Positions 5,766 to 64,000 of a stretch of 64,000 bases of DNA are shown piece by piece. A model generated the notes under the pieces. That model was not told the DNA's origin. It did no database searches and saw nothing but the letters and a program-made list of their open reading frames with translations. Location: assembly GCA_038046645.1 (NCBI GenBank), contig JBBSVU010000006.1:10304-74303 (forward strand), read 5' to 3'. Made by a program: the position numbers and the translations under genes. Numbering within the stretch: the first letter of the stretch is position 1; each line of letters opens with the position of its first letter. Source of the DNA: an archaeon. Its GTDB lineage: Archaea; Iainarchaeota; Iainarchaeia; Iainarchaeales; 0-14-0-20-34-12.

Positions 5766-5855
5766 TAGCGGAGGAAGGATTTGAACCTTCGACCTTCGGG
5801 TTTCCAACATTAAAGTTATGAGCCCGACGGGCACTCCTGGCTGCCCTACCCCGCT
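5766..5855 (-). tRNA. Initiator tRNA-Met (anticodon CAT) with ~15-nt intron at canonical 37/38 position
   Basis: Hand-folded cloverleaf with an A1:U72 end pair and three consecutive G:C pairs in the anticodon stem (TCGGG/CCCGA). Loop CTCATAA with a 15-nt insertion. T-arm GAAGG-TTCAAAT-CCTTC. Confidence 0.7.
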
Positions 5856-13437: not shown

Positions 13438-13718
13438 ATTGCATTGAAATGGGCATCTAAAGATCGAAGATGTTAAGCGAGGCAAATTTAGCCTATTAAA
13501 TTGCTTAATTCCGTACTCCGATAGCACCCAAAGCATAGACTACCGTTGCTTTCTTCCGAACCTGGCGGGGTTCTTCTATGTAAAGGGCCTATTGGAACAG
13601 AATATCATTGCAATATAACAGATTTGCATTGCAAAACAAATCCTTTCTTTAGCATTCAGCCCCAGCGTATAGCGGATTTCTGGTTACAAGGAACCGCTAA
13701 CTCCCCAGCCTAGCCCAA
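13430..13718 (-). ncRNA. Signal recognition particle RNA (7S/SRP RNA)
   Basis: Lies in a 360-bp ORF-free gap. The RNA-sense strand begins GGGCUAGGCUGGGGAGUUAGCGGUUCCUUGUAACCAGAAAUCCGCUAUACGCUGGGGCUGAA, an Alu-domain consensus with CUGUAACC. It contains the helix-8 SRP54-binding hairpin CCAGGUUCGGAAGAAAGCAACGGUAG with a GGAA tetraloop. A TATA box TTTATAAAA lies about 25 nt upstream of the 5' G. The 3' end is approximate. Confidence 0.6.
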
Positions 13719-13796
13719 ATATTTTTCGTTAATTGTTTTTATAAAGCAGATTGTTGTCGGCAAACTGTTTTAATTAATTGCTGATAATGTATATTT

Positions 13797-16416: not shown

Positions 16417-17373
16417 TTATTTATCTTCCTCTAAATCCTCGATTCCATTTTCAGTTATCTGGTAAATGGCTTCTCCGTCTGGCAAGAATGGGGAATCAAC
16501 AAGCTTTGCCACTCTTTTTGATGCCTTGCTCTTTCTGAGATATAATCGAGTTTTAGAAGCATGCCCTACTACATGTCCACCTATTGGGGCAGTAGGATCT
16601 CCGAATAGTATATCAGGCCTGCTCATTACCTGATTTGTTACAAGAACTGCAATATTATGGGCCTCAGCTAACTTCATCAGTTGCCTCATATGTTTGTTTA
16701 ATTTCTGTTGTCTTTCAGCTAAAAGGCCTCTTCCAATATATTCAGATCTAAACTGTGCGGTTAACGAATCCACAATTAACAGTTTGATATTTTTCTCCTT
16801 AATTATTTGGTCTGCTTTTTCAGTAAGAATCATTTGATGATCAGCATTATATGCCTTTGCAACAAAAATATTTTTTAGTGTTTTTTCCGGTTCCAAACCT
16901 TTTGCCTTTGCAATACTTACAATTCTTTCTGGCCTAAATGATGATTCAGAATCAATGTACAAAGTATTTCCCCCCAATCCTCCTTTATCTTTTGCTAATT
17001 GGACCATTACTGCTAACTGGAAACACCATTGGGTTTTGCTTGAAGACATCTCACCATATACCTCAGTAATGCTTTGGGTTTCTACCCCCCCTCCAAGCAA
17101 AGTATCTAATTCATTGCTCCCTGTGCTTATCTTCCCAATTATTTCCCTTCTTTTAAGTATCTTTTCCGCGCTTTCAAAACCCATATCAAGGGCATCCCTG
17201 GCGGCTTTAATTATCTTTTCAGCGGTTTTTTCCCCTAATTCTGCCACTTCCATCAATTCCCTTGGGGAAGCCACAGCAATATTCTCCAATGATTTATAAT
17301 TAGCTTTATATAGTTTCTCGGCTGCTTGCGGTCCAACACCAGGCAAGTCAGTAATTTCCTTTATTTCTGCCAT
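16417..17373 (-). CDS. radA: DNA repair and recombination protein RadA
   Basis: N-terminal HhH (DLPGVGPQAAEKL) followed by a RecA core with GEMSSSKTQ Walker A. 318 aa. Confidence 0.9.
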   Translation of the reverse strand: MAEIKEITDLPGVGPQAAEKLYKANYKSLENIAVASPRELMEVAELGEKTAEKIIKAARDALDMGFESAEKILKRREIIGKISTGSNELDTLLGGGVETQSITEVYGEMSSSKTQWCFQLAVMVQLAKDKGGLGGNTLYIDSESSFRPERIVSIAKAKGLEPEKTLKNIFVAKAYNADHQMILTEKADQIIKEKNIKLLIVDSLTAQFRSEYIGRGLLAERQQKLNKHMRQLMKLAEAHNIAVLVTNQVMSRPDILFGDPTAPIGGHVVGHASKTRLYLRKSKASKRVAKLVDSPFLPDGEAIYQITENGIEDLEEDK

Positions 17374-17454
17374 TTTTTCACCATACTATGCTTGTGCGAT
17401 TTTTTATTTATAAATGCTTTGGAAGAGTAGATTTCCCCTGAACTCCGTCTTTTC

Positions 17455-17757
17455 TTTTTCTCTTAGGAAGAGAAAAAGAAAATATAGGCTGTCAAAAGAA
17501 AAAGAGAAAAGAAAATATGGGTTGCCGAAAGAAAAGAGAAAGAAAAAGTAGGTTACAACTAATATCAAAGGACAAAAATAAAGAAACAAAAGTCGTCCTT
17601 TGATGGCTATAAAAAGACATTATAAAAGTTTCTAGATTAATGTCTTTTTATATAAAATCCAAGGGATTTTAGTGTACATTAAAATTCATAAGAATTTTAA
17701 TTGTATTAAGAGAAAGAAAACTTTGGTTGCCAAGAAAAAGAAAAGAGAATGTAAGTT
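17455..17757. repeat. Degenerate purine-rich ~33-bp tandem repeats (3 + 2 units, core GAAAAGAGAAA...TRGGTTGCCRAAAG) flanking two hairpins (17566-17601, 17611-17648)
   Basis: Read directly from the sequence. Located between the RPA stop and the radA start. The hairpins are followed by T-runs on the minus strand (likely RPA terminators). The repeats lie in the radA upstream region. Confidence 0.5.
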
Positions 17758-17792: not shown

Positions 17793-19094
17793 TTATGGTA
17801 GGTTAAAACTTCTTACCCCTACTCCTAATTTATCTTCAAATGTATTCTTTCTCACATTGCCTTCTAGTTCAATCTTTTTTCCTAAAATGTTGTTTGAAAT
17901 TTCCTCAATAAGGTCATCGCTATTTTTTGTTTCTAATTCACTTTTAATTTTATCCGCTTCCTTCCCAATTATTGCCTCAGCGTTTTCCCTGAAAAATGTT
18001 GTGTCAATGCTGCCTGTGCCGTCATCTACTGTTAATGAAATTATCGCGGTGGGCATCCCCTTTTGTTTGCATTCATCACATTCCCCTGTTTCCCTGTTCA
18101 CTTTCTTGCTGCACTGCGGGCAGCTGTCATAAACAAGCCTTCCGCGGTTTACTGAAAGGATTGTGCCAGAAATTTTTATTCTTGAATCAGTTTCAGTTAT
18201 CTCTGATATTTTTTTTTCAACAGCCGATTTTATGCCCCCAAGCTCTTCTAATTCAGGAATTTTTTCTTCTGTTTTTGGGGTTTTTAAAACTCTGGCAGAA
18301 TACCCTAAATGCAATTCAATATCCTTTAATCCTTGTTTGGTATAAGCCCCCTCAATTTTAATTAAATCGCCTGCTTTTAATTTTAAAATCTCATCAACCA
18401 TATCATTCCATGCAGTAGCCCTTATTGCCTTTGTCCCGTCATTTAGCATGAAATTTATTACCCCCTTTTTTATTCCATCTTTTTCAAAATAGTTTACAGG
18501 AAAAATATTTATTACCCGGGCTATCACATCAACATTCTGCAACCCCTCTTTTATTTCATTTAATTTCATCAGATTATTTGATTCACTTAATATGATAGTT
18601 TCATTTGTATTCTTATCAATCTGCGAGGAAAAGCCAATATTCAAAGAAGGTTTTTCATTGAACATCGAAATATAGCAATTTTTAAGCAGCAGGATGTGAT
18701 TCTTCTGCACATCTTCAAGCTCTTTTACGTGGTTATGCCAGGCGGTTGCCCTGCATTCCCCGGTTTCATCTTCCACAAGCATATTGCACAACAGCCCTTT
18801 TTTCCCGTTTTTCTCAAACTTTTTTGGTGCATAAATGTGTTTTACCCGCACTAAAATTGTAACTGTTTGCATGCCCTCTTTTAACTCATTTATTTTCGAC
18901 CTTACAACATTAGCTTCCAAATCAATTCCATAATCCTTTGCAACCATAAATGCTGCGCCTTCCTTGCTTAAAAGCCCAGCCATTTTTTTTTGCTTTCTGT
19001 CTATTTTATCAAGGATTTCTTCATTGCTCTTGCCTGTCTCCTTTATTATCCTTTCAAGAATGCTTTCAAAATTTGCCGCTTGCATAGTATTCAA
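17793..19094 (-). CDS. Replication protein A (ssDNA-binding, OB folds + zinc ribbon)
   Basis: Tandem OB-fold pattern and the zinc ribbon CPQCSKKVNRETGECDECKQ. Confidence 0.8.
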   Translation of the reverse strand: MNTMQAANFESILERIIKETGKSNEEILDKIDRKQKKMAGLLSKEGAAFMVAKDYGIDLEANVVRSKINELKEGMQTVTILVRVKHIYAPKKFEKNGKKGLLCNMLVEDETGECRATAWHNHVKELEDVQKNHILLLKNCYISMFNEKPSLNIGFSSQIDKNTNETIILSESNNLMKLNEIKEGLQNVDVIARVINIFPVNYFEKDGIKKGVINFMLNDGTKAIRATAWNDMVDEILKLKAGDLIKIEGAYTKQGLKDIELHLGYSARVLKTPKTEEKIPELEELGGIKSAVEKKISEITETDSRIKISGTILSVNRGRLVYDSCPQCSKKVNRETGECDECKQKGMPTAIISLTVDDGTGSIDTTFFRENAEAIIGKEADKIKSELETKNSDDLIEEISNNILGKKIELEGNVRKNTFEDKLGVGVRSFNLP

Positions 19095-40870: not shown

Positions 40871-41028
40871 TGCAGCCGACGGGATTCGAACCCGTGTCAA
40901 GACCTATCCTCATTTTTTAAATATCCAAAATTCTTTTCTTTGGATAATACCTAGACTTTCTTTTCTTTCTAAGAAAAGAAAGGCTTGGTTTTGGAAGGGT
41001 CTGATGCTAACCACTACACAACGGCTGC
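40871..41028 (-). tRNA. tRNA-Gly (TCC) with ~85-nt intron in the anticodon loop
   Basis: Exons fold into a cloverleaf: acceptor GCAGCCG/CGGCTGC, anticodon arm AGACC-CTTCCAA-GGTCT, T-arm ACGGG-TTCGAAT-CCCGT. The intron forms a long hairpin. Confidence 0.65.
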
Positions 41029-44303: not shown

Positions 44304-45509
44304 ATGTCCTGCAGCTTAATATGCCCAAATATGCCTTTAAATAACCAGGAAAAAATAACAACAGAAAACATTAATTTCTTTTTTTCACAAACATTTGATG
44401 CAGCATTGAAAGAATCAGTTCAAGCGGCCTTTGCAGAGTGTTATCCTAAGGTAAAGAATTATCTCCAAATTATGCCATATTCAAAATTAAATGTTAAAGC
44501 ATATTCCAAGCAAGATTGCCCTGACTGCACTTATTATGTCACAAATATCGGTGGAATTGATTTAACCTTGTATGAACAACAAGAATGCGGTGAAACATTT
44601 GCCCATGAGCTTACCCATTATTTTAATTATGCCAGCTCTCTTTCCCCTAATATTCTTGAAGAAGGCAGAGCAGTATTTATTTCAAAAGACATTGTTTCTG
44701 AAAATCAGGGGATGCAATCAAGCAAGGGCATAGATTGCTTGGCTGATTCATGGAAATATTCAGGGGAAAAGCCATTATCTGAAAAGATTGGGGAAGAGAC
44801 CGTTTGTGTTAATAATGCTACATCCAATTGCGGCAAAAAAACACTTTGGCAGATCGTAAATACCCCAGTATCTTTACTGACAAAAACATTTTCTAATGGT
44901 TACACCTTGAAGGTACAGGATTATTCATCCAATAAATTATCTTTTGACCTTTTTGATGAAGCAAATCAATTTTTGGAAAATGTAACATTAAAGCCATTGG
45001 AGTTTTTTGAAGGAAATAATTTCTTAGTCCATTTCGGCAAAATTATTACCCCATCTCCAATAAATCAGCAAATAGTACTGTTATTGATGCTTGATGATTA
45101 TAATTTACAGTGCTTTGTTGAAAATAAGCAGCAGTGCAATGTAAAAGCATCAAGCTGGCCGGAGAATAAATTTGCAAAGCTTGAAGAAGCGACATATTCA
45201 ATCAATTCTTTGAATACTGGATATTGTTTCTTCAAAGCCCTTAATTCTTTAAGTGCGGGCATTGTTAAAGCGTTATCTGAAAAAATGGCGTCTTCAAGAA
45301 ATGACTTCAAGGTATTCTGCACTGAAGATTTTCTTAAAACAAAGATTCAGCCATCAGATTTAAACATATTAAAGCAAAAATACGGCCTTGAAACTTATAT
45401 TGACCAATGCAAATTTTCAGCAATCCCGGCAGCACTTTTAGGCTGCCCAATGAACCTTGGATGTTACAGCTATTATGACCCTGTACAAGGTTGGGTTAAT
45501 ATTGAATAA
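44304..45509 (+). CDS. Cys-rich hypothetical protein with HExxH motif (FAHELTHYFNY); possible zinc-dependent hydrolase
   Basis: ORF plus the motif. The start is probably Met27 of the track ORF (MSCSLICPN). Confidence 0.45.
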   Translation: MSCSLICPNMPLNNQEKITTENINFFFSQTFDAALKESVQAAFAECYPKVKNYLQIMPYSKLNVKAYSKQDCPDCTYYVTNIGGIDLTLYEQQECGETFAHELTHYFNYASSLSPNILEEGRAVFISKDIVSENQGMQSSKGIDCLADSWKYSGEKPLSEKIGEETVCVNNATSNCGKKTLWQIVNTPVSLLTKTFSNGYTLKVQDYSSNKLSFDLFDEANQFLENVTLKPLEFFEGNNFLVHFGKIITPSPINQQIVLLLMLDDYNLQCFVENKQQCNVKASSWPENKFAKLEEATYSINSLNTGYCFFKALNSLSAGIVKALSEKMASSRNDFKVFCTEDFLKTKIQPSDLNILKQKYGLETYIDQCKFSAIPAALLGCPMNLGCYSYYDPVQGWVNIE

Positions 45510-45547
45510 TTCAGGGGAAATCTACTCTTCCAAAGCTAATTTAAATG
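45510..45547 (+). promoter_or_regulatory. Promoter cassette: motif TTCAGGGGAAATCTACTCT + 9 nt + TATA-like AATTTAAAT, 20 nt before ATG 45567
   Basis: One of four copies at identical spacing (also 56523-56558, 58794-58829, 63964-64000). Confidence 0.55.
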
Positions 45548-45566: not shown

Positions 45567-46355
45567 ATGAATCTTTCTTTGATGTCTATTGAATATTTAA
45601 CTAATTCATTGTTAGATCCAAAAGTAATCACAAGAGAAGTAAAAGTCACTAAAAGAGATGCTTACTTTGATTTTATTGTTTATAGGAATGCAAGACGTTC
45701 GAGAATTCCGTTTGAACTTAATTCATCCATTGCATATCTTTGTGGAGTTATTTTAGGGGACGGTAGCATATCACTAATTCATAGGAAAAAAGTAAATACC
45801 GTTCTACCTTATACCTTTCTAAAAATATTCAACCAATCATTACCATTCTTACTTCAAATTAATCGCCTTTTTAAAGAAAATTTTGGGACTGAAGGCAAAC
45901 TATATAAAAAAAATTATTGTAACTGTTATGTTCTTCAAGTTTCTAATAAAATAGTTTGGTTATATTTTGTTAAACTACTTGGTTTGCCTATTGGTAAAAA
46001 AAGCAACATTAGTATTCCCCGATCTTTATTAAATAAGAATATTTTCAAATATTTTGTTGCAGGTCTAATGGATACTGATGGTTATTTTTCAGAAAACTCC
46101 TTTGGAATAATGCTTTCTGGATCTAATTTGATTTTTTTGGAGTCAATAAAAAAATATTGCAAGTGCTTTTATGGCATTAATTTTAGAAAAACTAATATAA
46201 ATACTTTAGAAGTTAATGGTAAATTATTTCAAAGAGCGCAGATAACTACTTCTGCGAATTCCATGAATACGTTTAAAGGAATAATTCCCCTATGTCATGA
46301 AAAATGGGATGGGCCCGGTGAGGATCGAACTCACGAGTTCCACCGTACCCAGTGA
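45567..46355 (+). CDS. Free-standing LAGLIDADG homing endonuclease (two LAGLIDADG motifs)
   Basis: YLCGVILGDGSI and FVAGLMDTDGYF motifs. The 3' end overlaps an antisense tRNA gene. Confidence 0.7.
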   Translation: MNLSLMSIEYLTNSLLDPKVITREVKVTKRDAYFDFIVYRNARRSRIPFELNSSIAYLCGVILGDGSISLIHRKKVNTVLPYTFLKIFNQSLPFLLQINRLFKENFGTEGKLYKKNYCNCYVLQVSNKIVWLYFVKLLGLPIGKKSNISIPRSLLNKNIFKYFVAGLMDTDGYFSENSFGIMLSGSNLIFLESIKKYCKCFYGINFRKTNINTLEVNGKLFQRAQITTSANSMNTFKGIIPLCHEKWDGPGEDRTHEFHRTQ

Positions 46356-50486: not shown

Positions 50487-50589
50487 CGAGCCCGCTGGGA
50501 TTCGAACCCAGGACACCCAGATTAAGAGTTTCACCTCATGTTATAATCAAATAACAGAACTGGTGCTCTGCCAACTGAGCTACGGGCCC
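50487..50589 (-). tRNA. tRNA-Lys (CTT) with 30-nt intron at a non-canonical position (within the 5' strand of the anticodon stem, ~30/31)
   Basis: The exons reproduce the tRNA-Lys(TTT) body exactly (GGGCCCGTAGCTCAGTTGGCAGAGCAC...). Anticodon arm CCAG|intron|A-CTCTTAA-TCTGG. Confidence 0.7.
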
Positions 50590-55610: not shown

Positions 55611-56501
55611 ATGCCTGTATTAAAAAAACCCGCACCAAGGCCAAGAAGGCCTTTTGCTGAAATAACCGAATCAAGAAAAGGCCCTCTGAATGTAGCGCTT
55701 GCTGATTTTTATGACGAACATGGCAGATGGGTAAAAAGAAAATCAAAGGTAACGGTAGGGGGCAGATTAGTAGAGAGGCGCAAGCACACTGTTGATAAGG
55801 AAGGGCCTAAATATATACAAGATGTTTATTCTGACAAAGGTAAGCTTATTGGTTCTATCATAACCCAAAGAGAACCTGCTTTTGATTTAAATAGAGGGGA
55901 AGACAGGTTTCATCTTGAGGTTAAGGATAAAAGGCGTGGTCAGATTAGAACAATAGATGCAATACACAAAGGAAAATTTGAAGATGTAAATATTGCCCAT
56001 TTAAATGAATGGCTTTCAGCCGAAATATTAGATATGCCTATATTTGATAGGCCTATTTTTGATAAGCCTGATTTTGCAAGAAATCTTGCAACTGCATTAA
56101 CTAGGGCTCCATATTTTTTCTTTGAAAACTTTTCAGATGCAAGAATGGAAGAATTTGCAAGGTATGTTGCTGAACATAAATACGAATTTATGTCCGGCAT
56201 AAGCAAAAATCCCGACGGTTTTTGGAATTCTTTGCATAAACATAAATATGCTTTTGCAAAAAACCTTGAGCGTTTCTTGTTGGAAGGCCATATAGAAAGG
56301 GATAACGCCCTGATGATTGCATTTAAATTAAGTGGCGTAAATCTGGCTGGTGAAGGAAGGTTAGCGCCTGCAATAAGGCGCAGTATGCGGCAAGAGGAAA
56401 TTGATAAACAAGCAAGAGCCAATGCTGAACAAAGAAGATTATTGCAAGAAGCAGAAAGGGCTGTTGTAATAAAACCGCCATCCAAGCAACCAAAAAAGTA
56501 A
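55611..56501 (+). CDS. Hypothetical protein (Pro/Arg-rich N-terminus MPVLKKPAPRPRRP; FDRPIFDKPDF repeat)
   Basis: ORF with coding-like composition. No known domain recognised. Confidence 0.45.
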   Translation: MPVLKKPAPRPRRPFAEITESRKGPLNVALADFYDEHGRWVKRKSKVTVGGRLVERRKHTVDKEGPKYIQDVYSDKGKLIGSIITQREPAFDLNRGEDRFHLEVKDKRRGQIRTIDAIHKGKFEDVNIAHLNEWLSAEILDMPIFDRPIFDKPDFARNLATALTRAPYFFFENFSDARMEEFARYVAEHKYEFMSGISKNPDGFWNSLHKHKYAFAKNLERFLLEGHIERDNALMIAFKLSGVNLAGEGRLAPAIRRSMRQEEIDKQARANAEQRRLLQEAERAVVIKPPSKQPKK

Positions 56502-56582: not shown

Positions 56583-57680
56583 ATGAATCCTTTAAGAATA
56601 ATTTCTGAAGCTGTTGAAAACATAAAGCAGAATGAGGCAAAGAGAGTAGATGCAGTAAAAGAAATTCTTGCAAAAAAATATTCGAAAATTGATTTTGATA
56701 CAGGTTCAAAAAATTGCTTGCTTGAAGATAAATTGGTTTTTCCAATTGCTGAACATACTTTGAATTCAAGGATTGCGGCGGTTGATTCAGGCTTTGTTGG
56801 AAAAAACCTTTATTCTTTTGACCTGCTTTTCATAAGGACAGCAGGTGTACTTTTTACTTATAAAAACAACATTCTTGAGAGGGCAGCATATTACCCAGAA
56901 ATGTTTTCCTTCCCAAAGCCAATTTTCATCAATGGAGCTTTACAATTAGATGAAAGCTCGGTTTCAAGAAGCCTTTACCGCCTATTTGAAGAAATTGGCT
57001 TAGCCAAAGAAATAATTGAAAAGGAAAAGCCGGAATACTGTTTAATCGACGGTTCAATTATTCCACAGCATGCAGACAAGCCAAGAAAGGATTCTAAGGT
57101 AACAAATTCATATTCAAAGGTTATTTCCCTATTTGAAAGTTTATACAAAGCAGCAGAAGATAATGGCACAATTTTAATCGGATGTATTGAAGATTCAAGA
57201 GGTTCAAGATTCAGGGAAATAATCCAGCAGAATTTTGTTTCTGAACTGAATAAACCAAGGTTAGATGATTGCTATGATTCTGTTTTGTTGGATTCCTTGC
57301 TAAAAGAAAAGGAAAGAACCTCTGCATTCCATTATACAAACAATATCGAAATGCACCCTATACTTTCAGATTTTAATGAAAAATATTCAAAAGCCGTGAA
57401 TGTTTGTTACTTAAAACCTTCAAAATATGATCGTGCATTAAGGATTGAATTTTTGTCAAATGAAAGGAATGAAAAACTAACTGAATTTGTGGATAAAATT
57501 TCACCCGTAATCTGCCAATTGTCATCACTGCACAGGGAATATGCATTTCCCTCCCCTTTAATAGAAGCAGATTTAAGGGCAGGTTTAAATCCAGACGAAA
57601 TAGAATTTGTTTTCAACAAAATAGCTGACAAATTAGGCAATAATTTTAGGCTAATGCGCAGGGATTCAAGGCCGTTTTAA
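56583..57680 (+). CDS. NurA-like nuclease (RNase H-like fold) - tentative
   Basis: RIAAVDSGFVG near the N-terminus and CLIDGSIIPQ mid-protein resemble the NurA catalytic Asp motifs. The real start is probably ATG 56583 (MNPLRIIS), downstream of the TATA box. Confidence 0.45.
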   Translation: MNPLRIISEAVENIKQNEAKRVDAVKEILAKKYSKIDFDTGSKNCLLEDKLVFPIAEHTLNSRIAAVDSGFVGKNLYSFDLLFIRTAGVLFTYKNNILERAAYYPEMFSFPKPIFINGALQLDESSVSRSLYRLFEEIGLAKEIIEKEKPEYCLIDGSIIPQHADKPRKDSKVTNSYSKVISLFESLYKAAEDNGTILIGCIEDSRGSRFREIIQQNFVSELNKPRLDDCYDSVLLDSLLKEKERTSAFHYTNNIEMHPILSDFNEKYSKAVNVCYLKPSKYDRALRIEFLSNERNEKLTEFVDKISPVICQLSSLHREYAFPSPLIEADLRAGLNPDEIEFVFNKIADKLGNNFRLMRRDSRPF

Positions 57681-57824: not shown

Positions 57825-58715
57825 CTAGGTAAAATATGCTTTCTTAGGGAATTGTATTGAGCTTGCTGTTCCTGCTACCAAACGCCCGTTACCTGTCTTT
57901 GGGTCAATTACTACAAAAAAGCATTTTGCTATCTCAGCACATAAATTAGGGGTGGCACTTTCTTTTGCTAGGTTGCTTAGTTCTGCTTTAGCTTTCAATA
58001 TCTTATCTCTGTATTCTTTGAACTGCTTGCGTAATTCTTCATAATTGGGAATGTTCTTTCTGCGTGTTGCATAATAATCTAATACTTGTTTAGTTCCTCC
58101 TTCAGATAAATCCTCAACAGGCAACACAGCGCAAGTCATTACCTGTTCTGGATTTGTTTTTACTAATTTATAAGATTCAATGGTTGGAATGCCCATATTT
58201 CGCAATATTTTAAAATTTTCATTTTCAAGGTGAAGCCATATTGTTCCATGCCTATGGCTTACAAAATAATTTTCATCAAAATATCTTTTTCTTATTGCAG
58301 CAGGCACATTATCAGGCAATTCCCCAACTCCAATAATCCCTAAATTCATCTTTCCTTCTAACTCAGAAAGCTGCCTTCTGACCCAATTATCAGGATATCT
58401 GCAGGCTTTAAGTGCAAACCATTTTCTTTCACCAGTTTTATGGTCATCAAATTGCCCTGCCCTAAAAACAAGTATCTTGCCACCAACCCCTAAAAGCCTT
58501 GGGTCTTGCTTGCTTATTGCAACAGTTTTGATGCCTCTTGGAAAAATATATCTAAATCTTTCCATAACAAGTGTTTGCATGCTATTTCTGCTGACTTCTG
58601 TTACTTTCAGTTCAGCACTTCTTTCAATCATATCCTTTCTTCTTAAGAGTTTTGACAATTTTCTTAATCCTTTGTGAAATCTGTTCTTTAGTCCCAGCAA
58701 ACTTGGCTTAATCAT
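57825..58715 (-). CDS. Hypothetical protein (basic N-terminus; HRHGTIWLHLENEN segment), divergent from HerA-like gene
   Basis: ORF only. Confidence 0.45.
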   Translation of the reverse strand: MIKPSLLGLKNRFHKGLRKLSKLLRRKDMIERSAELKVTEVSRNSMQTLVMERFRYIFPRGIKTVAISKQDPRLLGVGGKILVFRAGQFDDHKTGERKWFALKACRYPDNWVRRQLSELEGKMNLGIIGVGELPDNVPAAIRKRYFDENYFVSHRHGTIWLHLENENFKILRNMGIPTIESYKLVKTNPEQVMTCAVLPVEDLSEGGTKQVLDYYATRRKNIPNYEELRKQFKEYRDKILKAKAELSNLAKESATPNLCAEIAKCFFVVIDPKTGNGRLVAGTASSIQFPKKAYFT

Positions 58716-58793
58716 ATTCTACTCATATTGCAACCTTCTTAATTATTTTTGGTTTGCAGGTAATACACAAAAAGTGTCCACTAGAAAGAATAG

Positions 58794-58829
58794 TTCAGGG
58801 GAAATCTACTCTTTGCAATGCTTTATAAA
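58794..58829 (+). promoter_or_regulatory. Promoter cassette copy: TTCAGGGGAAATCTACTCT + 9 nt + TTTATAAA, 24 nt before ATG 58853 (divergent region shared with 57825..58715)
   Basis: Same motif and spacing as the other copies. Confidence 0.55.
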
Positions 58830-58852: not shown

Positions 58853-61800
58853 ATGGTTATAAATAATTCACAGACTGTTGGCACAGTAATTTCAGCAATA
58901 AATTCCCCAAACCCTAGTTCTGCAGATTTTGTTGTTACCTCTGGCTTAATACACAGAGGGCAATTTGTTGAAATAGAAAATCCATCAGGCAATTTTATTG
59001 CCTTGGTAATGGACGTATATAAAACAAACAAATATTTTGAAAGGGCTGACTCAGTAAAAGAATTTGAATCAAAAGGCCAAGCATTATTTGAACAGTTTCC
59101 TGTACACGAATGGGAATACCTTGTCGCAAATACAAAACCTTTAGGTGTGTACTCTGGCGACAATTTCTACAGGCCAAGCTTTCCTCCATCCCCAGGATCA
59201 AAGGTAAGGATTGCTGATTCTGAAAAATTAAAAAAATTCTTCCATTTTGATGAATCTGGCTTGCATTTAGGCAATGTTGAATACCATGATTTATCTGTTA
59301 AACTGAATCTGTCAAGGATGTTGAAGAAACACCTAGCAATTTTAGCTATGTCTGGTTCGGGAAAATGCGGTGATTACAATCTTGAAATATTGTTGAGTAA
59401 TGGCAGGACAATTAAGCTTGGTGAGCTTGTTGACAACCATTTGAAAAATAAAAAAGTAATTGAAGATAATGTCGAGGTCTGTGATGTTAATCCAAATAAC
59501 TTAAAAGTAATTTCCATAGGTAAAGATAATCAACCAATAACCTCTGAAATTAAGGCGTTTATGAGGAGGAAGGCCCCAAAAAAGATGTTTAGAATCAGGA
59601 CAAGAACAGGCAAACAATTATTGATTACTCCAGAGCACCCAATACCGATTCTAAATGAACAAATAAATTGGATTCAAGCTAAAAATCTTGCTAAAAAAGA
59701 TTACCTAATTACGACAATGCCCCTAATAGAGGGATCAGAACAAATAATTGATTTTGTCCAATTATGGAAGAATTCTTCTAAAGTCAGAGTTGATGATGAG
59801 CTTATTCTGGCTGAATTAAAATCTAAACTTTTTGAGAAATATTCAATAAAAGAGTTTTCAAAAATCATTAATATGACCCCCCAAAAACTACAATATTTAT
59901 TATCGCATTCAGGAGTTCCTTTGGATTATCTAAAATTAATTTGTAACAAATTAGGCGTGGATTTTTTGGAGATATGTTCAAAAATAAAAACATTAAAAGT
60001 ACTGTCTTCCAGAATCCCTGCAAAGGTTATTGTTGATGAAAAATTTGCAAGATTTATGGCTTATTTGTTAGCAGAAGGACATAATAGTGGTCAAACTATT
60101 ATTTTTACTAATAGCTCTACTTTAATTAGGGAAGATTTTAGCAATCTAACAAAATTATTTGGTGTTACTGCAAGCATTAATAGAAAGAGGGATATTGAAC
60201 TTAGAATTTATAACAAACTTTTAGCAGACAGTTTATTTAAGTTAGGTTTTACTGATTCTAGTTGGACCAAATATATTCCAGAGGAGATTCTATTAAGTAA
60301 AAAATCAGTTTTAGCAGCTTTTTTGGGTGCATTTATTGATTGTGATGGTTATGTTAGTTCTAAGAAATCACATATCGAAATAACGCTTGCCAGTAAACAG
60401 ATGTTAGACAACATAGAACAGATAGTTTTGCGATTTAAGTTAAATCCAATAAGAAAGATAAAAACAGTTAAAGGCAAACAATATGGCAGGTTATTTTTAG
60501 GCGGTGCGGATTATTTAACTATCCTAAATAATGAATTAACCCTTTTAATAGACTATAAAGCAAAAGCGCTTAAGGAATGTTCCTTAAAAAAACCAAATTC
60601 AAACATTAGGGTAATCCCCAACATTAAACATACTTTAGCTTTCCTACAAAATAAGCTTAATTTAACCCAAAGCCAATTTGTTAATATTGCTAATTATTTG
60701 TCGCGAGAGGAAAGGCATGATGATCCAACACCCACTTCGTTAAAATCTTTACTGAATGAATTTGAACATAATTATGAAAGTATTCAGAGTACCCTAGCTC
60801 AAACAAAAAAATTATTTTATGCTATGCCAAATTTAACTGAAGAAGATGCAAAAAAAATACTTGTAGATGCCTACTCTAAATATGATTTTAACAAAATTGC
60901 TAAAAATACAAATATTTCAAGCACTACCGCAAGAAGAGTAGTAAGAGGTTTAACCGAACCAAACCTAAATACCTTTTGCCTTGCTAAAAATGCCTTGGCT
61001 TTAGAAAATGAATCTGATTTAGGCATAGATGTAATTACTAATTTAGACTTTAAGCAACTAGCCAGTCAAATTAGGGTTTTGTGTAAAAATATTGGTTGTG
61101 AAATACAGGAGTTATGCAACAGAAGTGGGTTTAACGATCAATATTTGGATGGTTATTCTTACAATCCCTTAAATACAATAAGGTATTCAAATATCTACAA
61201 GGTTTTGTATAATCTCTTTATTATTTCATTAGATAAAGAAAAGCAATTGCCTGAAATTAGAGAGAAACTTGATTTTTTGCACACACTTATTTCTGATAGC
61301 TTATTTTTTGATGCAATTGAATCTGTTGAAGAGGTTGATTATGACAAAGAATATGTTTATGACTTATGTGTAAAAGAGCACAATTTTGTTGCAAATAATC
61401 TAATCATTCACAATAGTTTTTCAACAGCTTGTTTAATTGAAGAGCTCCTTAACCGGCAAAAAGAAAAAGGCAGGATTGCAATTGTTGTTTTAGACCCGCA
61501 TGGTGAATATTCCAGCTTTGCCCAGCCTGTGAAAGATGGCAAGTATGAGGATTTTTCTGACCGCACGAAAATCATTAAAGCCCAAAACATCAGAATAGCT
61601 GTGCCAAAAATGAGCGTTCATATGCTTTCTGGAATAATTCCTGGATTAACAATTCCGCAGAAAAGGGATTTAAGCAGGATTTTATCAAGCCTTAAAGAAG
61701 ATATGTATCGCGGCTTAGGGCCTTTTGATTGGTCACATGTAAAAGATGCAATTTTGAAAGATGACAATATAAAGCAAAATTCAAAATTCCCTTTAATGGG

Positions 61801-62449
61801 CTGGATTGATGATCTAATGTCCTATAACTTATTTGCGAGGACAGATATGCCTGCTGTTTCTGAATTAATTAAACCAGGAACATTAACAATACTTGATTTT
61901 TCAGACATAGTGAACATGAAAAAGAAGCAGATGATTGTAAGTTATTTTGCAAACAAGCTGTTTGATGAAAGAAAATCAAATGTAATTCCCCCGACACTTT
62001 TAATTGTGGAGGAAGCTCATCAATGGTGTCCGCAGATGGCATCAGAAGAATCAGCTATTTCCCGTTCCATTCTGCGAACAATTGCAAGGGAAGGAAGAAA
62101 ATTTGGAATGTCCCTTTGCATAATTTCTCAAAGGCCTGTTCAGCTTGATACCACAACACTTTCACAATGTTCCACTCATTTAATTTTGCGCATTACAAAC
62201 CCAAACGATTTGAAACACATAGCAGAATCATCAGAAGGAATTGACCAAAGAAGTTTTGGAATAATAAATTCCTTGCAGGTTGGGGAAGGATTGCTTGTTG
62301 GGGAAGCAACAGGCTATCCATTATTTTTTAAGGTAAGGTATAGGAAATCAATGCCAAGCAAGCATGAAATTTCCCTAGAAGATGCAGCTTTGAAATTTGA
62401 AAGCTCTGCAGATAAAACAAAGGCTGAAACCGAGGGATTTTTGGAATAA
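58853..62449 (+). CDS. HerA-like FtsK/HerA-superfamily ATPase interrupted by a 683-aa intein in the Walker A motif (extein ~515 aa)
   Basis: N-terminal HAS-barrel-like region. Walker A GSGK|C...HN|S restores GSGKS after splicing. DPHGEY, LLIVEEAHQW and ISQRPVQLD motifs typical of HerA. Confidence 0.75.
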   Translation: MVINNSQTVGTVISAINSPNPSSADFVVTSGLIHRGQFVEIENPSGNFIALVMDVYKTNKYFERADSVKEFESKGQALFEQFPVHEWEYLVANTKPLGVYSGDNFYRPSFPPSPGSKVRIADSEKLKKFFHFDESGLHLGNVEYHDLSVKLNLSRMLKKHLAILAMSGSGKCGDYNLEILLSNGRTIKLGELVDNHLKNKKVIEDNVEVCDVNPNNLKVISIGKDNQPITSEIKAFMRRKAPKKMFRIRTRTGKQLLITPEHPIPILNEQINWIQAKNLAKKDYLITTMPLIEGSEQIIDFVQLWKNSSKVRVDDELILAELKSKLFEKYSIKEFSKIINMTPQKLQYLLSHSGVPLDYLKLICNKLGVDFLEICSKIKTLKVLSSRIPAKVIVDEKFARFMAYLLAEGHNSGQTIIFTNSSTLIREDFSNLTKLFGVTASINRKRDIELRIYNKLLADSLFKLGFTDSSWTKYIPEEILLSKKSVLAAFLGAFIDCDGYVSSKKSHIEITLASKQMLDNIEQIVLRFKLNPIRKIKTVKGKQYGRLFLGGADYLTILNNELTLLIDYKAKALKECSLKKPNSNIRVIPNIKHTLAFLQNKLNLTQSQFVNIANYLSREERHDDPTPTSLKSLLNEFEHNYESIQSTLAQTKKLFYAMPNLTEEDAKKILVDAYSKYDFNKIAKNTNISSTTARRVVRGLTEPNLNTFCLAKNALALENESDLGIDVITNLDFKQLASQIRVLCKNIGCEIQELCNRSGFNDQYLDGYSYNPLNTIRYSNIYKVLYNLFIISLDKEKQLPEIREKLDFLHTLISDSLFFDAIESVEEVDYDKEYVYDLCVKEHNFVANNLIIHNSFSTACLIEELLNRQKEKGRIAIVVLDPHGEYSSFAQPVKDGKYEDFSDRTKIIKAQNIRIAVPKMSVHMLSGIIPGLTIPQKRDLSRILSSLKEDMYRGLGPFDWSHVKDAILKDDNIKQNSKFPLMGWIDDLMSYNLFARTDMPAVSELIKPGTLTILDFSDIVNMKKKQMIVSYFANKLFDERKSNVIPPTLLIVEEAHQWCPQMASEESAISRSILRTIAREGRKFGMSLCIISQRPVQLDTTTLSQCSTHLILRITNPNDLKHIAESSEGIDQRSFGIINSLQVGEGLLVGEATGYPLFFKVRYRKSMPSKHEISLEDAALKFESSADKTKAETEGFLE
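59366..61414 (+). mobile_element. Intein with LAGLIDADG homing-endonuclease domain (Cys1 ... His-Asn, +1 Ser)
   Basis: Starts CGDYNLEILLSNGRTIKLGELV (block A). LAGLIDADG blocks FMAYLLAEGHNSG and LAAFLGAFIDCDGYV. Ends FVANNLIIHN followed by S. Confidence 0.8.
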
Positions 62450-62465: not shown

Positions 62466-63101
62466 TTATTTCCTTAATTCTTTAATAATCTGGTCCCTGG
62501 CCTGAATGCATGCGTTTTTGCATTCTTCATTTAATGGTGATGGAAGATTTCTGCTATCAACAATCTCCTTATCAGTTATTTTGCCAATTGCTGAAACAGC
62601 CCTAGTTATTCCTTCTTGGTATTCTGCTTCACTTTTACTTCTTAGCCCAAGCAAGTGTTTAAAACTCTCAATTGATCCAGTGCGGCTTCCAGTAATTGGT
62701 ACGGCATATTGCACTACAAAGTGGAGGCGCAAGCGTTCACCAGTGTGTTTGTTGCCATTTCTTATTGATTCAATGACTCTTTCTTTTGTTCCTAAATATA
62801 TTGGCCTTACTGCATCAACAATTGCATTTTCTGCATACAGCTCTAAAGCATCGCCATACCTTGCTTTTAAATCTTTCCAGAACCTGGCATAAATTGTTTC
62901 TAAACGTCTTAATTCACCTGTTCCCTGCTCTGGGGGAAGAGCACCTTCTTTAATCCAAACAAGCTGTTTTGCTAATTCTTCACTGCATTCTCTTTTCAAT
63001 TCCTTTAATGGCGGGCGCCGTATTGGAATAGCTTCATGGCTTTCAATAGACCTTCTTCGTGCCATATTCCAAGGAACTGGTTTTGCTGGTGCTTTTGGCA
63101 T
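62466..63101 (-). CDS. Hypothetical protein (Pro/Lys/Arg-rich N-terminus MPKAPAKPVPW..RRRS)
   Basis: ORF only. Confidence 0.45.
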   Translation of the reverse strand: MPKAPAKPVPWNMARRRSIESHEAIPIRRPPLKELKRECSEELAKQLVWIKEGALPPEQGTGELRRLETIYARFWKDLKARYGDALELYAENAIVDAVRPIYLGTKERVIESIRNGNKHTGERLRLHFVVQYAVPITGSRTGSIESFKHLLGLRSKSEAEYQEGITRAVSAIGKITDKEIVDSRNLPSPLNEECKNACIQARDQIIKELRK

Positions 63102-63181: not shown

Positions 63182-63901
63182 TTGATTTATTTTTTAGGAT
63201 TGTTTTTAATTGTTTTATGTGCTTATTTTTGTATGCCTGTGAAGTTAAGAACCAGAACAATTAGATTTAGGGAACGGCAGGGCCAAGATACTTATTATTA
63301 TGAATTAATTAAGGAAAGAATAAAGCGCCGTTGGAGATATCGTATCCGTAAAGGATTAATGAAGGCAGCAGAATGCCATAGTGCAATATTTAACAGGTTG
63401 AAAAAATTAGGAATCCCAATATCTACTTTATATGATGTAAGAACCGGCGGGATGCAATATACTGCCAAGGATATGTCAAAAGGCGGCTATTTAAGGATAA
63501 TTAATGCATATGAAGCAACAATTGCAGCAAGAAAGCGTACAAAAAAATGGGCTGATGCATCTGCCTACTGGAAAGACAACCCTATCTCGAATATGCGCAG
63601 CATTGTTTCAGGCATTACTAGGGATTTGGCAATAATGCACAAAAATGGCTTGTTTATTTCAGGGCGAAGAGTTGTTCTTGAACCTTGGCTTGTTTATTTT
63701 CGCGGAAAAGAAAATGAGAAGCAAAGAATTGCATCAAGGGCAATCACTGATGTCGGGTCAATACTTGAAACATCCAAAATGAGTATTAATGATATTTATG
63801 ATGCATATATGGATAATATTGAAGACCTACATATTAGTTTTCCTGAAGAATATCAAAGCCTTATTGATAAAACATATGCAAAATATTTTACTTCGGCCTA
63901 A
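63182..63901 (+). CDS. Hypothetical protein (N-terminal hydrophobic segment then Arg-rich region)
   Basis: ORF only. Confidence 0.4.
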   Translation: MIYFLGLFLIVLCAYFCMPVKLRTRTIRFRERQGQDTYYYELIKERIKRRWRYRIRKGLMKAAECHSAIFNRLKKLGIPISTLYDVRTGGMQYTAKDMSKGGYLRIINAYEATIAARKRTKKWADASAYWKDNPISNMRSIVSGITRDLAIMHKNGLFISGRRVVLEPWLVYFRGKENEKQRIASRAITDVGSILETSKMSINDIYDAYMDNIEDLHISFPEEYQSLIDKTYAKYFTSA

Positions 63902-63963
63902 CCATCTAATTCAATGAAAAGGTCTTAGCTTAGCATTCAGGGGAAATGCCCCTAGAGGGAAAG

Positions 63964-64000
63964 TTCAGGGGAAATCTACTCTCCTTCAATTTCTTTAAAT
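63964..64000 (+). promoter_or_regulatory. Promoter cassette copy: TTCAGGGGAAATCTACTCT + 9 nt + TCTTTAAAT at window end (target gene outside window); truncated copy TTCAGGGGAAATGCCCC at 63936-63952
   Basis: Same motif and spacing as the other copies. Confidence 0.5.

What the first reader, a model, noticed from the sequence alone, without database searches (positions are those of the whole stretch)
59366..61414. 683-aa LAGLIDADG intein splitting the Walker A lysine/serine of the HerA-like ATPase
- The intein begins with Cys immediately after GSGK and ends ...NNLIIHN followed by Ser. Excision restores a perfect GSGKS P-loop.
- It carries two LAGLIDADG blocks.
- Its splicing or flanking regions are unusually large (about 220 aa before the first LAGLIDADG block and about 250 aa after the second). 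This suggests extra DNA-recognition modules.
- P-loop insertion sites are classic intein homing sites. HerA inteins are uncommon.
- The intein is markedly more AT-rich than the surrounding island.
Basis: partly seen in the sequence, partly recalled or inferred. Interest (0 to 1): 0.6.

Follow-up and report, generated by a model that had tools for sequence, protein, structure and literature searches.

The report
Large homing intein in HerA P-loop
A DNA-repair ATPase gene (herA) of an uncultured groundwater DPANN archaeon is interrupted, exactly inside its ATP-binding loop, by a real but ordinary-in-kind self-splicing protein element (intein) that carries a homing endonuclease and unusually many helix-turn-helix DNA-binding modules.

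Summary
ORF 58853-62449 (+) encodes a 1198-aa HerA-family ATPase. Codons 172-854 (nt 59366-61414) are a 683-aa insert running from Cys1 to His-Asn, followed by Ser+1. Removing it restores GSGKS. An orthologue with 89% identical exteins lacks the insert precisely.

The insert matches Pfam Intein_splicing and LAGLIDADG_3. It has all the splicing blocks and both endonuclease acidic residues. Its predicted fold matches solved endonuclease-containing archaeal inteins.

The extra length is real. There is a roughly 97-aa helix-turn-helix module before the endonuclease and a 255-aa all-helical module after it.

About 18 clusters of HerA proteins, from two HerA clades, carry the same intein family at the same site. 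Its nearest relatives in other hosts are P-loop inteins of MCM (24% identity over the same domain order). Part of the post-endonuclease module is shared with them.

The intein is AT-richer than its exteins (30.3% vs 37.1% GC), and this also holds in a second host. No "island" is evident, because the neighbourhood is conserved chromosomal synteny.

Verdict: a new member of a known kind, an unreported HerA P-loop intein allele with an expanded accessory architecture. Splicing and homing are inferred, not shown. Interest is modest.

The parts
58793..58813 (+). 21-nt motif GTTCAGGGGAAATCTACTCTT just upstream of the herA TATA-like box (TTTATAAA at 58822-58829). It is the probable promoter-proximal operator of the interrupted gene.
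   Evidence: Four copies in the window with at most 1 mismatch, 0 expected in shuffles. Each lies 6-9 nt upstream of a TATA-like box. It is also present upstream of the intein-free herA in L001. Its function is inferred.
58853..59365 (+). N-extein of the HerA-family ATPase (aa 1-171). It covers the N-terminal barrel region and the start of the ATPase domain, up to Walker A ...SGSGK.
   Evidence: The spliced product matches Pfam DUF87/HerA, NCBIfam HerA models (1.4e-45, below the equivalog cut-off) and Sulfolobus HerA 4d2i (3.4e-34).
59366..61414 (+). The intein as a whole: 683 aa, from Cys1 to His682-Asn683.
59366..59710 (+). N-terminal Hint (splicing) subdomain, intein aa 1-115. Block A is Cys1. 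Block B is TPEH at aa 88-91 (nt 59627-59638).
   Evidence: TIGR01445 intein_Nterm 1.3e-13. Matches Pho/Pab CDC21-1 inteins at 9e-14 and 2e-11. Beta-strand model with pLDDT about 85. C1 and the T and H of block B are invariant in 16 family members.
59711..60001 (+). N-side accessory module (aa 116-212) containing a Cro/C1-type helix-turn-helix (aa ~158-204).
   Evidence: Pfam HTH_26 7.4e-5 (23.4 bits, cut-off 22) and HTH_3 0.004. Relatives hit HTH_26, HTH_23 or HTH_Tnp_ISL3 at the same place. Helical model with pLDDT 86-90. The module is absent from family members P0130, P0131 and P0136, so it is facultative.
60002..60535 (+). LAGLIDADG homing endonuclease domain (aa 213-390). Motif 1 is at aa 230-240 (nt 60053-60085) with catalytic Glu237. 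Motif 2 is at aa 319-330 (nt 60320-60355) with catalytic Asp327.
   Evidence: LAGLIDADG_3 6.8e-16 in two stretches. Matches the endonuclease domain of the VMA inteins 7qsu/7qss at 7e-29 and 2e-28. E237 is invariant and D327 is conserved in all but one of 7 close relatives. Model confidence is low for aa 238-300.
60536..61300 (+). C-side accessory module (aa 391-645), all-helical. It opens with the conserved motif N-x-N-x-x-x-I-P-N (aa 411-419) and a first HTH-like unit shared with MCM P-loop inteins. Two further HTH-like units follow, including ISSTTARRVV at aa 517-526. A long helix then leads back to the Hint domain.
   Evidence: AF2 model pLDDT 82, with 13 helices. No significant whole-domain PDB match, but local matches to HipB/XRE HTH at probability 0.9-0.97 with E about 1. 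HTH_3 is hit in 3 of 6 family members and in relatives. hhalign between the N-side HTH and C unit 2 gives probability 85%. The profile search finds this module only inside inteins.
61301..61414 (+). C-terminal Hint subdomain (aa 646-683). Block F is YVYDLCVKEHNFVAN (aa 663-677). Block G is NLIIHN (aa 678-683).
   Evidence: VYDL, NF and the terminal HN are invariant in 16 family members.
61415..62449 (+). C-extein, starting with the +1 Ser nucleophile (the Walker A Ser). It contains Walker B (LLIVEEAH) and the rest of the ATPase, and ends with the stop codon.
56583..57680 (+). nurA, the usual operon partner of herA. Here it is separated from herA by an inserted antisense orphan ORF (57825-58715).
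   Evidence: Pfam NurA 1.9e-13. Gene call of 365 aa in L005. NurA and HerA are directly adjacent in the intein-bearing relative L002.

Best explanation
Nucleotides 59366-61414 encode a canonical class-1 intein. It is a Hint splicing domain interrupted by a two-motif LAGLIDADG homing endonuclease. It sits between the Lys and the Ser of the Walker A motif (GSGK|S) of the chromosomal HerA-family ATPase of a DPANN (Diapherotrites/Iainarchaeota-like) groundwater archaeon.

Inferred mechanism, protein level: the gene is translated as a 1198-aa precursor whose ATP-binding loop is split and therefore inactive. The steps are then:
1. Cys1 performs an N-S acyl shift.
2. Ser+1 attacks the thioester.
3. 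Asn683 cyclises with the help of His682.
4. An O-N shift yields the 515-aa HerA with an intact GSGKS, plus a free 79-kDa intein.

Inferred mechanism, DNA level: the free intein's endonuclease cuts intein-less herA alleles at the P-loop codons. Recombinational repair then copies the intein in (homing). The one to four helix-turn-helix modules on both sides of the endonuclease domain most likely lengthen the DNA contact around the target.

What is shown: the exact boundaries, the empty allele, all catalytic residues, the fold, the family and its sporadic distribution. What is inferred: splicing itself, endonuclease activity and the role of the HTH modules.
For: Boundaries and restored P-loop.

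Family and structure matches:
- Pfam Intein_splicing 1.1e-22, LAGLIDADG_3 6.8e-16, HTH_26 7.4e-5.
- TIGR01445 1.3e-13, plus matches to the intein parts of intein-containing NCBIfam models.
- Solved relatives: VMA-intein endonuclease domain 7e-29, CDC21-1 inteins 9e-14.
- AF2 model pLDDT 79. Foldseek top hits are TliVMA intein 4e-17, PI-PkoII 2e-15 and PI-PfuI 2e-11, and many mini-inteins match at rmsd about 2 A.

Empty site:
- Orthologue P0008 has 89% identical exteins and 82% identical DNA, with no insert and the same GSGKSFSTACLIEELL.
- 113 of the 120 best orthologues are about 510 aa.

Family:
- 6 clusters at 41-45% identity, and 18 representative clusters at E<=1e-10, are all HerA/DUF87 proteins with GxGK|C...HN|S.
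- C1, T..H, VYDL, NF, HN and the LAGLIDADG acidic residues are conserved.

Mobility signals:
- The intein occurs in two HerA clades whose exteins are only 35-39% identical to the window's, while their inteins are 35-41% identical to it.
- NJ trees of inteins and exteins disagree.
- The intein is 7-9 GC points below its exteins in two hosts of different GC.

Not an artefact: the identical protein is on 5 contigs from at least 3 assemblies.

The P-loop is the documented hot spot for inteins (PMC4513877, PMC4760082).
Against: - No experiment exists. Splicing and cleavage are inferred from conserved residues only.
- The first half of the endonuclease domain is modelled with low confidence (pLDDT below 50 for aa 238-300).
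- In the window's own sequence, the HTH assignment of the C-side module rests on sub-threshold matches. It is firmer only in relatives.
- The trees are unbootstrapped NJ trees, so horizontal transfer is suggested, not proven.
- AT-richness could also reflect relaxed selection rather than foreign origin.
Confidence: 0.9

Rival explanations
1. The intein is real and splices, but its endonuclease is no longer active. On this view the element is a vertically inherited relic at the end of the homing cycle, kept only because imprecise loss would destroy the P-loop. The extra HTH modules would be decaying baggage.
For: - One close relative has the second catalytic Asp replaced by Asn (P0004, DCNG), and two distant ones have D-A instead of D-G.
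- Intein identity (26-47%) is mostly lower than extein identity, as expected for faster, less constrained evolution.
- Low GC at all three codon positions could reflect relaxed selection.
Against: - The window's copy keeps both catalytic acids (E237, D327) and the full architecture.
- The 255-aa accessory module has 26 invariant positions across the six sequences of the A3 alignment, and its length is conserved (665-688 aa in most members). This argues for purifying selection.
- The closest orthologue is empty while more distant HerA genes are occupied, and the trees are incongruent. Both fit ongoing gain and loss.
Confidence: 0.25
2. The intein has been co-opted. One version is a conditional splicing switch that keeps the HerA-NurA end-resection motor off until a signal (DNA damage, single-stranded DNA, redox) triggers splicing, as described for the P-loop intein of Pyrococcus RadA. 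Another version is that the excised HTH-rich protein acts as a DNA-binding regulator, in the manner of WhiA.
For: - The P-loop position makes the precursor necessarily inactive.
- Conditional splicing of a P-loop intein in a recombination protein is documented (PMC4513877, PMC5790916).
- Multiple HTH modules are more than any solved intein shows.
- WhiA (LAGLIDADG plus HTH) appears among the structural matches (3hyi, E 9e-4).
- herA shares a promoter motif with radA.
Against: - There is no direct evidence.
- The patchy distribution and empty close orthologue argue that the host does not need the intein.
- The intact endonuclease residues are explained more simply by selfish homing.
Confidence: 0.1
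3. The 683-aa segment is a native HerA insertion domain, or a non-splicing Hint-like (BIL or hedgehog-type) module, rather than an intein.
For: There is a weak sub-threshold Pfam Hint hit (0.0024). Some HerA clades do carry extra C-terminal domains.
Against: - A precise empty site exists in an orthologue with 89% identical exteins and in more than 100 others.
- The complete intein block set is present, including the terminal HN and the +1 Ser.
- Intein_splicing scores far above its cut-off.
- The insert splits an essential catalytic loop, which only makes sense if it is removed.
Confidence: 0.01
4. The insertion is an assembly chimera, with intein DNA from another organism joined into herA.
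For: The window comes from metagenome-type data, and the intein has a different GC content.
Against: - The identical 1198-aa protein is encoded on five contigs from independent assemblies and runs (ERZ1292620, ERR3858129, ERR3858128).
- The reading frame is continuous.
- The same architecture recurs in 18 diverged clusters.
Confidence: 0.01

Closest known systems
MCM-a / CDC21-1 P-loop inteins of archaeal MCM helicases. Examples are the Halomicrobium katesii MCM intein (locus L008) and the Pyrococcus abyssi and P. horikoshii CDC21-1 mini-inteins (PDB 6rpp, 6rpq).
   Same: - Same insertion point relative to the ATPase motif, directly after the Walker A Lys (GK|S).
- Domain order matches the haloarchaeal MCM-a intein throughout (24% identity, BLASTP 4e-17, 5e-13 and 4e-10). 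The match covers Hint-N, the endonuclease, the N-x-N-x-D-x-I-P-N motif with its following HTH unit, the long pre-block-F helix and Hint-C.
- Hint-N is most similar to the CDC21-1 inteins (9e-14).
- MCM P-loop inteins are the best non-HerA hits of the accessory-module profile.
   Different: - The host protein differs: a HerA/FtsK-class ATPase, not the AAA+ MCM.
- The HerA intein is about 200 aa longer. It has an extra HTH module between Hint-N and the endonuclease, and two extra HTH-like units in the post-endonuclease module.
- Identity is low, so common descent by ectopic transfer between P-loops is an inference.
TliVMA and PhoVMA inteins (PDB 7qss, 7qsu, 7qst; PMC8966425)
   Same: - They are the best solved matches by sequence (endonuclease domain, 7e-29) and by fold (4e-17).
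- They share the three-part plan of Hint, LAGLIDADG endonuclease and an accessory domain. In TliVMA the accessory domain resembles an HTH DNA-binding protein and alters cleavage behaviour.
   Different: - The host (V-ATPase subunit A) and the insertion site differ.
- The window's intein has 97 aa before the endonuclease and 255 aa after it. The 432-aa TliVMA chain aligns to it only over Hint-N, the endonuclease domain and Hint-C.
PI-PkoII (PI-TkoII, PDB 2cw7) and PI-PfuI (1dq3)
   Same: They are large archaeal inteins with additional domains. PI-TkoII has an accessory domain plus an extra domain IV, and PI-PfuI has an accessory domain. Both are significant structural matches (2e-15 and 2e-11).
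   Different: - Their hosts are DNA polymerase and ribonucleotide reductase.
- Their extra domains showed no whole-domain similarity to the window's C-side module.
- They are 454-537 aa, against 683 aa here.
Pyrococcus horikoshii RadA P-loop intein (PDB 4e2t, 2lqm; PMC4513877)
   Same: It is also an intein at the end of the Walker A loop of a recombination and repair ATPase. It is a structural match to the Hint domain and the model case for conditional splicing.
   Different: It is a mini-intein of about 170 aa, without an endonuclease or accessory domains. Conditional splicing has not been tested for the HerA intein.
Other inteins in the same HerA orthologue group: site b after Walker B (EEAHQF|C...GN|C, about 340 aa; P0028, P0030 and others) and site c (LSQ|C...HN|C; P0130)
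   Same: They share the host family and are LAGLIDADG-containing inteins in conserved ATPase motifs.
   Different: They occupy different insertion sites and belong to unrelated intein families. The window's gene has neither, although it keeps the Cys at both sites (QW|CPQ and LSQ|CSTH).

Membership tests
Intein (class 1, Hint-domain protein-splicing element) | An in-frame insertion in a conserved host-protein motif that is precisely absent from orthologues. | tested here: met
   P0008 has 89% identical exteins and reads SGSGKSFSTACLIEELL without an insert. 113 of the 120 best orthologues are about 510 aa.
Intein (class 1, Hint-domain protein-splicing element) | An N-terminal nucleophile (Cys or Ser at position 1) and the block B T-x-x-H motif. 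| tested here: met
   Cys1, and TPEH at aa 88-91. C1, T and H are invariant in 16 family members.
Intein (class 1, Hint-domain protein-splicing element) | Blocks F and G, with a terminal His-Asn followed by a +1 Ser, Thr or Cys. | tested here: met
   YVYDLCVKEHNFVAN...NLIIHN|S. HN and the +1 Ser are present in all 16 members.
Intein (class 1, Hint-domain protein-splicing element) | A match to curated intein profiles above threshold. | tested here: met
   PF14890 at 81 bits (cut-off 35.8). TIGR01445 at 51.7 bits (cut-off 24.5).
Intein (class 1, Hint-domain protein-splicing element) | A Hint fold. | tested here: met
   In the AF2 model the Hint parts have pLDDT about 78-91. Foldseek aligns about 120 columns to many mini-inteins at rmsd 1.8-3 A with TM(target) about 0.6.
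Intein (class 1, Hint-domain protein-splicing element) | Autocatalytic excision and extein ligation. | not testable with these tools
   This requires expressing the precursor and detecting the 58-kDa and 79-kDa products.
LAGLIDADG homing endonuclease (two-motif, monomeric) | Two LAGLIDADG motifs, each ending in a catalytic acidic residue before Gly. | tested here: met
   LLAEG (E237) and IDCDG (D327). PF14528 matches in two stretches at 6.8e-16.
LAGLIDADG homing endonuclease (two-motif, monomeric) | The fold and sequence of an intein-nested endonuclease domain. | tested here: met
   Aligns to the endonuclease domain of 7qsu/7qss over aa 211-384 at 7e-29 and 2e-28. The model is weak for aa 238-300.
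LAGLIDADG homing endonuclease (two-motif, monomeric) | Site-specific cleavage of the intein-less allele, with homing. | not testable with these tools
   Only indirect signs are available: patchy distribution, incongruent trees and compositional contrast.
HerA (NurA-associated DNA-end-resection ATPase, HerA/FtsK class) | The DUF87/HerA central ATPase domain with Walker A and Walker B. | tested here: met
   PF01935 at 1.1e-21. GSGKS is restored on splicing and LLIVEEAH is Walker B. The spliced product matches Sulfolobus HerA 4d2i at 3.4e-34.
HerA (NurA-associated DNA-end-resection ATPase, HerA/FtsK class) | A score above the NCBIfam HerA equivalog cut-offs. | tested here: not met
   Best is NF040937 at 155.6 bits against a cut-off of 800. 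This is a divergent DPANN member, so it is called HerA-family rather than an equivalog.
HerA (NurA-associated DNA-end-resection ATPase, HerA/FtsK class) | Genomic association with nurA, and with rad50/mre11. | tested here: met
   nurA lies 1.2 kb upstream in the window and directly adjacent in L002. A Rad50-like SMC_N gene lies about 4 kb downstream in L005 and L002. mre11 was not looked for.
Accessory DNA-binding domains of endonuclease-containing inteins (ACD, sensu PMC8966425) | An extra folded module between the Hint and endonuclease parts with the character of a DNA-binding fold. | tested here: inconclusive
   The N-side module passes the Pfam HTH_26 cut-off marginally (23.4 against 22 bits). 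In the window's own sequence the C-side module is HTH-like only by sub-threshold or local matches. Relatives give clearer HTH_3 hits. DNA binding itself was not tested.

The most novel reading that the evidence does not exclude
The HerA P-loop intein may not be merely selfish. It could work as a DNA-sensing post-translational switch, with its four HTH-type modules binding DNA (damaged DNA, or the herA/radA promoter region). Splicing, and hence activation of the HerA-NurA resection motor, would then be coupled to DNA damage. Alternatively, the excised 79-kDa LAGLIDADG-plus-HTH protein could act as a WhiA-like regulator of the recombination genes that share the 21-nt promoter motif.
Probability: 0.08. 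Interest if true: 0.65.

Novelty: new member of a known kind. Interest (0 to 1): 0.3.

Why it matters
It adds HerA, the motor of the archaeal NurA-HerA DNA-end-resection machine, to the list of P-loop ATPases colonised by inteins. In fact the HerA orthologue group carries inteins at three different catalytic motifs.

Its similarity in domain order to MCM P-loop inteins supports the idea that inteins can move between unrelated ATPases through the shared Walker A sequence.

For enzyme engineers, the family offers a natural series with and without an N-side HTH module, and with a three-unit C-side module. Such a series could show how accessory domains tune homing-endonuclease specificity.

For annotation, it explains a 1198-aa 'HerA' and warns that the functional protein is 515 aa.

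None of this changes current understanding of inteins.

Tried and rejected
- Foldseek against the PDB for that domain gave no significant whole-domain match.
- Pfam on the window's own C-side module and its three sub-blocks gave only E>0.04 hits. PHROGs gave nothing for it or for the neighbouring orphan ORFs.
- Scan of IMG/VR viral contigs for the accessory module: no relative, so there is no evidence for a viral vector.
- Scan of GTDB representative genomes: no close relative. Only distant MCM-type and other P-loop inteins in haloarchaea, Micrarchaeota and Aenigmatarchaeota turned up.
- Literature: no paper in the held library mentions a HerA intein. Novikova et al. 2016 do not list HerA in the main text, and their supplement is not held.
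- DNA repeats around the junctions: only short chance matches, with no target-site duplication or terminal repeats, as expected for an intein.
- All-against-all BLASTP of the ten ORFs tested between 49 and 64 kb (four orphan ORFs beside nurA and herA, and six further upstream): no paralogy.
- The 'island' idea was rejected because the gene order nurA-herA...rpoK-S17e-rad50-EF1beta-CCA is conserved in a relative of 51% GC.
- The native-domain and assembly-artefact readings were rejected (see the rivals).
Full report
**Observation**

The window contains one long ORF at 58853-62449 (+), 1198 aa. The string GSGK|C places a Cys at codon 172 (nt 59366). The string NNLIIHN|S ends at nt 61414. The intervening segment is exactly 683 aa, and deleting it gives a 515-aa protein that reads ...AMSGSGKSFSTACLIEELL....

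**What the insert is**

- Pfam gives Intein_splicing 1.1e-22 (81 bits, cut-off 35.8), spanning residues 9-683. It also gives LAGLIDADG_3 6.8e-16 in two stretches and a Cro/C1-type HTH (HTH_26, 7.4e-5) at intein residues 158-204.
- NCBIfam gives intein_Nterm 1.3e-13, plus matches to the intein portions of intein-containing aIF2, RpoA'', V-ATPase, Tes, RtcB and DnaB models.
- Among solved structures, the endonuclease domain aligns to the Thermococcus/Pyrococcus VMA inteins (7qsu/7qss, 7e-29 and 2e-28). The N-terminal Hint part aligns to the Pyrococcus CDC21-1 (MCM P-loop) inteins (9e-14 and 2e-11).
- An AlphaFold2 model built on seven sequences has mean pLDDT 79. Foldseek against the PDB returns endonuclease-containing inteins first: TliVMA 4e-17, PI-PkoII 2e-15 and PI-PfuI 2e-11. 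Dozens of mini-inteins then superpose on about 120 columns at about 2 A rmsd.
- All canonical catalytic positions are present: Cys1, block B TPEH (aa 88-91), block F VYDL...HNF, His682-Asn683 and Ser+1. The two LAGLIDADG acidic residues are Glu237 and Asp327.

**It is an insertion, not a native domain**

A search with the spliced extein finds an orthologue, P0008, with 89% identical exteins and exactly 515 aa. It has the uninterrupted sequence SGSGKSFSTACLIEELL. Its DNA (L001) aligns to the window on both sides of the insert at 81-82% identity, with the break at the predicted junction.

Of the 120 best orthologues listed, 113 are about 473-537 aa. The other seven are about 850 aa and carry a different intein, at a different site directly after Walker B (EEAHQF|C...GN|C).

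The window's exact 1198-aa protein is encoded on five contigs from independent groundwater assemblies (ERZ1292620 'Hain_H52', ERR3858129, ERR3858128). Chimeric assembly is therefore excluded.

**The host gene**

The spliced protein matches Pfam DUF87/HerA, NCBIfam HerA models (1.4e-45, far below the equivalog cut-offs) and Sulfolobus HerA 4d2i (3.4e-34).

nurA lies upstream. A Rad50-like gene, rpoK, S17e, EF-1beta and the CCA-adding enzyme lie downstream. The same order is found around an intein-bearing relative from a 51% GC organism, where nurA and herA are adjacent. This is conserved chromosomal synteny, not an island.

The organism is an archaeon, shown by an archaeal SRP RNA. Named orthologues are Diapherotrites/Iainarchaeota MAGs.

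**The extra length**

The intein divides as follows:

| Part | Intein aa |
|---|---|
| Hint-N | 1-115 |
| N-side accessory module | 116-212 |
| Endonuclease | 213-390 |
| C-side accessory module | 391-645 |
| Hint-C | 646-683 |

The N-side module is helical with pLDDT 86-90. It passes the HTH_26 threshold marginally. Relatives hit HTH_26, HTH_23 or HTH_Tnp_ISL3 at the same position. It is missing from three family members (P0130, P0131, P0136), so it is a facultative cassette.

The C-side module, modelled alone, is an all-helical domain with pLDDT 82. It has no significant whole-domain match in the PDB. It does have local matches to XRE-type HTH proteins (HipB, probability 0.9-0.97, E about 1). 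Three of six family members hit Pfam HTH_3 there (best 2.8e-5), and more distant relatives do so more clearly. Profile-profile comparison links the N-side HTH to the second C-side unit (hhalign probability 85%).

So 'extra DNA-recognition modules' is a reasonable reading. It is firm for one module and probable for two or three more. DNA binding itself is untested.

HTH-like accessory domains in endonuclease-containing inteins are already known (TliVMA, PI-TkoII; PMC8966425). What is unusual here is their number and size.

**The family**

A direct search with the intein finds only six clusters, at 41-45% identity. All are HerA proteins with the same junctions. A profile of the C-side module, searched against 1.84 billion representatives, finds 18 proteins at E<=1e-10. 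Every one examined is a DUF87/HerA protein with GxGK|C...HN|S.

They fall into two HerA clades: the approximately 510-aa NurA-type and a roughly 650-aa type with a C-terminal winged-helix region. One protein (P0130) also has a second intein, at a third site (LSQ|C...HN|C).

Weaker hits (1e-8 to 1e-4) are P-loop inteins in MCM, plus one in a T2SSE/VirB11-type ATPase. All of these are again inserted right after the Walker A Lys.

The MCM-a intein of the cultivated haloarchaeon Halomicrobium katesii shares the same domain order with the window's intein (24% identity; BLASTP 4e-17, 5e-13 and 4e-10). The match covers Hint-N, the endonuclease, the N-x-N-x-D-x-I-P-N motif with the following HTH unit, the long helix before block F, and Hint-C. 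The HerA intein thus looks like an MCM-a-type P-loop intein with two added cassettes. Descent by transfer between P-loops is an inference.

**Signs of mobility**

- The closest orthologue is empty, while HerA genes that are only 35-63% identical are occupied.
- Inteins from the distant 650-aa HerA clade (P0129, P0134; exteins 35-37% identical) are more similar to the window's intein (39-41%) than inteins from closer HerA genes are (P0140-P0143; exteins 45%, inteins 26-32%).
- Midpoint-rooted NJ trees of inteins and exteins disagree (no bootstraps).
- The intein is 6.8 GC points below its exteins in the window (30.3% vs 37.1%). That places it at the 2.5th percentile of equal-sized windows, and the bias is seen at all codon positions. 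It is 9 points below in the 51% GC relative (43.1% vs 52.1%).

These facts fit a homing element with an active or recently active endonuclease. They do not prove activity. One relative has lost a catalytic Asp, so the 'relic' alternative keeps appreciable weight.

**Mechanism**

The mechanism is inferred from the established chemistry of class-1 inteins and LAGLIDADG enzymes. The precursor has a split Walker A loop and cannot bind ATP. The splicing steps are:
1. An N-S shift at Cys1.
2. Transesterification to Ser+1.
3. Asn683 cyclisation.
4. An O-N shift.

These rebuild GSGK-S. The released intein cuts empty herA alleles at the P-loop codons and is copied in by recombination.

**Comparison, novelty and scores**

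P-loops are the documented hot spot for inteins (PMC4513877, PMC4760082). HerA does not occur in the main text of the 2016 survey and so is absent from its tables of the top intein hosts. No paper in the searched library mentions a HerA intein.

This is therefore a previously undescribed allele of a well-understood kind of element, with an expanded accessory architecture. I rate it a new member of a known kind, with interest 0.3.

The most novel reading not excluded is a DNA-responsive splicing switch or a WhiA-like second function of the excised HTH-rich protein. I put that at about 8% probability.

**Dead ends**

- Two structure libraries were unavailable.
- No viral relatives were found.
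- No close relatives exist among GTDB representatives.
- No meaningful DNA repeats lie at the junctions.
- The neighbouring orphan ORFs have no family assignments.

Noticed in passing
window 58793-58813 (+), 17423-17443 (-), 45509-45529 (+), 63963-63983 (+); also L001 ~122-143: A 21-nt motif, GTTCAGGGGAAATCTACTCTT, occurs four times with at most 1 mismatch, against 0 expected in 100 shuffles. Each copy lies 6-9 nt upstream of a TATA-like box and about 45-60 nt upstream of a start codon. The genes are herA, radA (16417-17373, Pfam Rad51 4.6e-92), a free-standing LAGLIDADG ORF, and the gene starting just past the window end. It looks like a shared operator of a recombination/repair regulon in this DPANN lineage.
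   Followed up: partly
window 57825-58715 (-), 62466-63101 (-), 63182-63901 (+), 55611-56501 (+): Orphan ORFs of 211-296 aa, with no Pfam or PHROG family, are interleaved with the nurA-herA module. One sits antisense between nurA and herA, which are adjacent in the relative L002. The two after herA correspond to no aligned DNA in the contig of the closest relative, L001. These look like lineage-specific insertions of unknown nature.
   Followed up: partly
related proteins P0028, P0030, P0038, P0062, P0103, P0122, P0123 and P0130; window codons for QW|CPQ and LSQ|CSTH in the C-extein (61415-62449): The same HerA orthologue group carries two further, unrelated inteins. One is a roughly 340-aa LAGLIDADG intein right after Walker B (EEAHQF|C...GN|C). 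The other is at LSQ|C...HN|C. The window's gene has the nucleophile Cys at both sites but no intein there. HerA is thus a three-site intein host.
   Followed up: partly
window 45567-46355 (+): A free-standing 262-aa ORF has two LAGLIDADG-like motifs (LGDGSI and MDTDGYF; Pfam LAGLIDADG_3 6.8e-11). It is not inside an intein or an obvious intron, and it is preceded by the same 21-nt promoter motif as herA and radA.
   Followed up: partly
window 17448-17546; L001 57-159: A purine-rich 33-nt tandem repeat (2.4 copies) and an adjacent inverted repeat (TCTTTTCTTTTTCTCTT AGG AAGAGAAAAAGAAAA) lie upstream of radA. The same sequence (91% identity over 103 nt, higher than the coding DNA) lies upstream of herA in the relative L001. 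This suggests a mobile or shared regulatory cassette.
   Followed up: partly
window 40871-41028 (-), 50487-50589 (-), 5766-5855 (-); 13447-13720 (-): Rfam finds three tRNA matches much longer than 71 nt (158, 103 and 90 nt), presumably intron-containing archaeal tRNAs. ARAGORN missed two of them. An archaeal SRP RNA (124.5 bits) is also present.
   Followed up: no
window 16417-17373 (-) and 17793-19094 (-): radA (318 aa) has no intein, although its P-loop is a classic intein site. An RPA-like multi-OB-fold protein is its neighbour.
   Followed up: no
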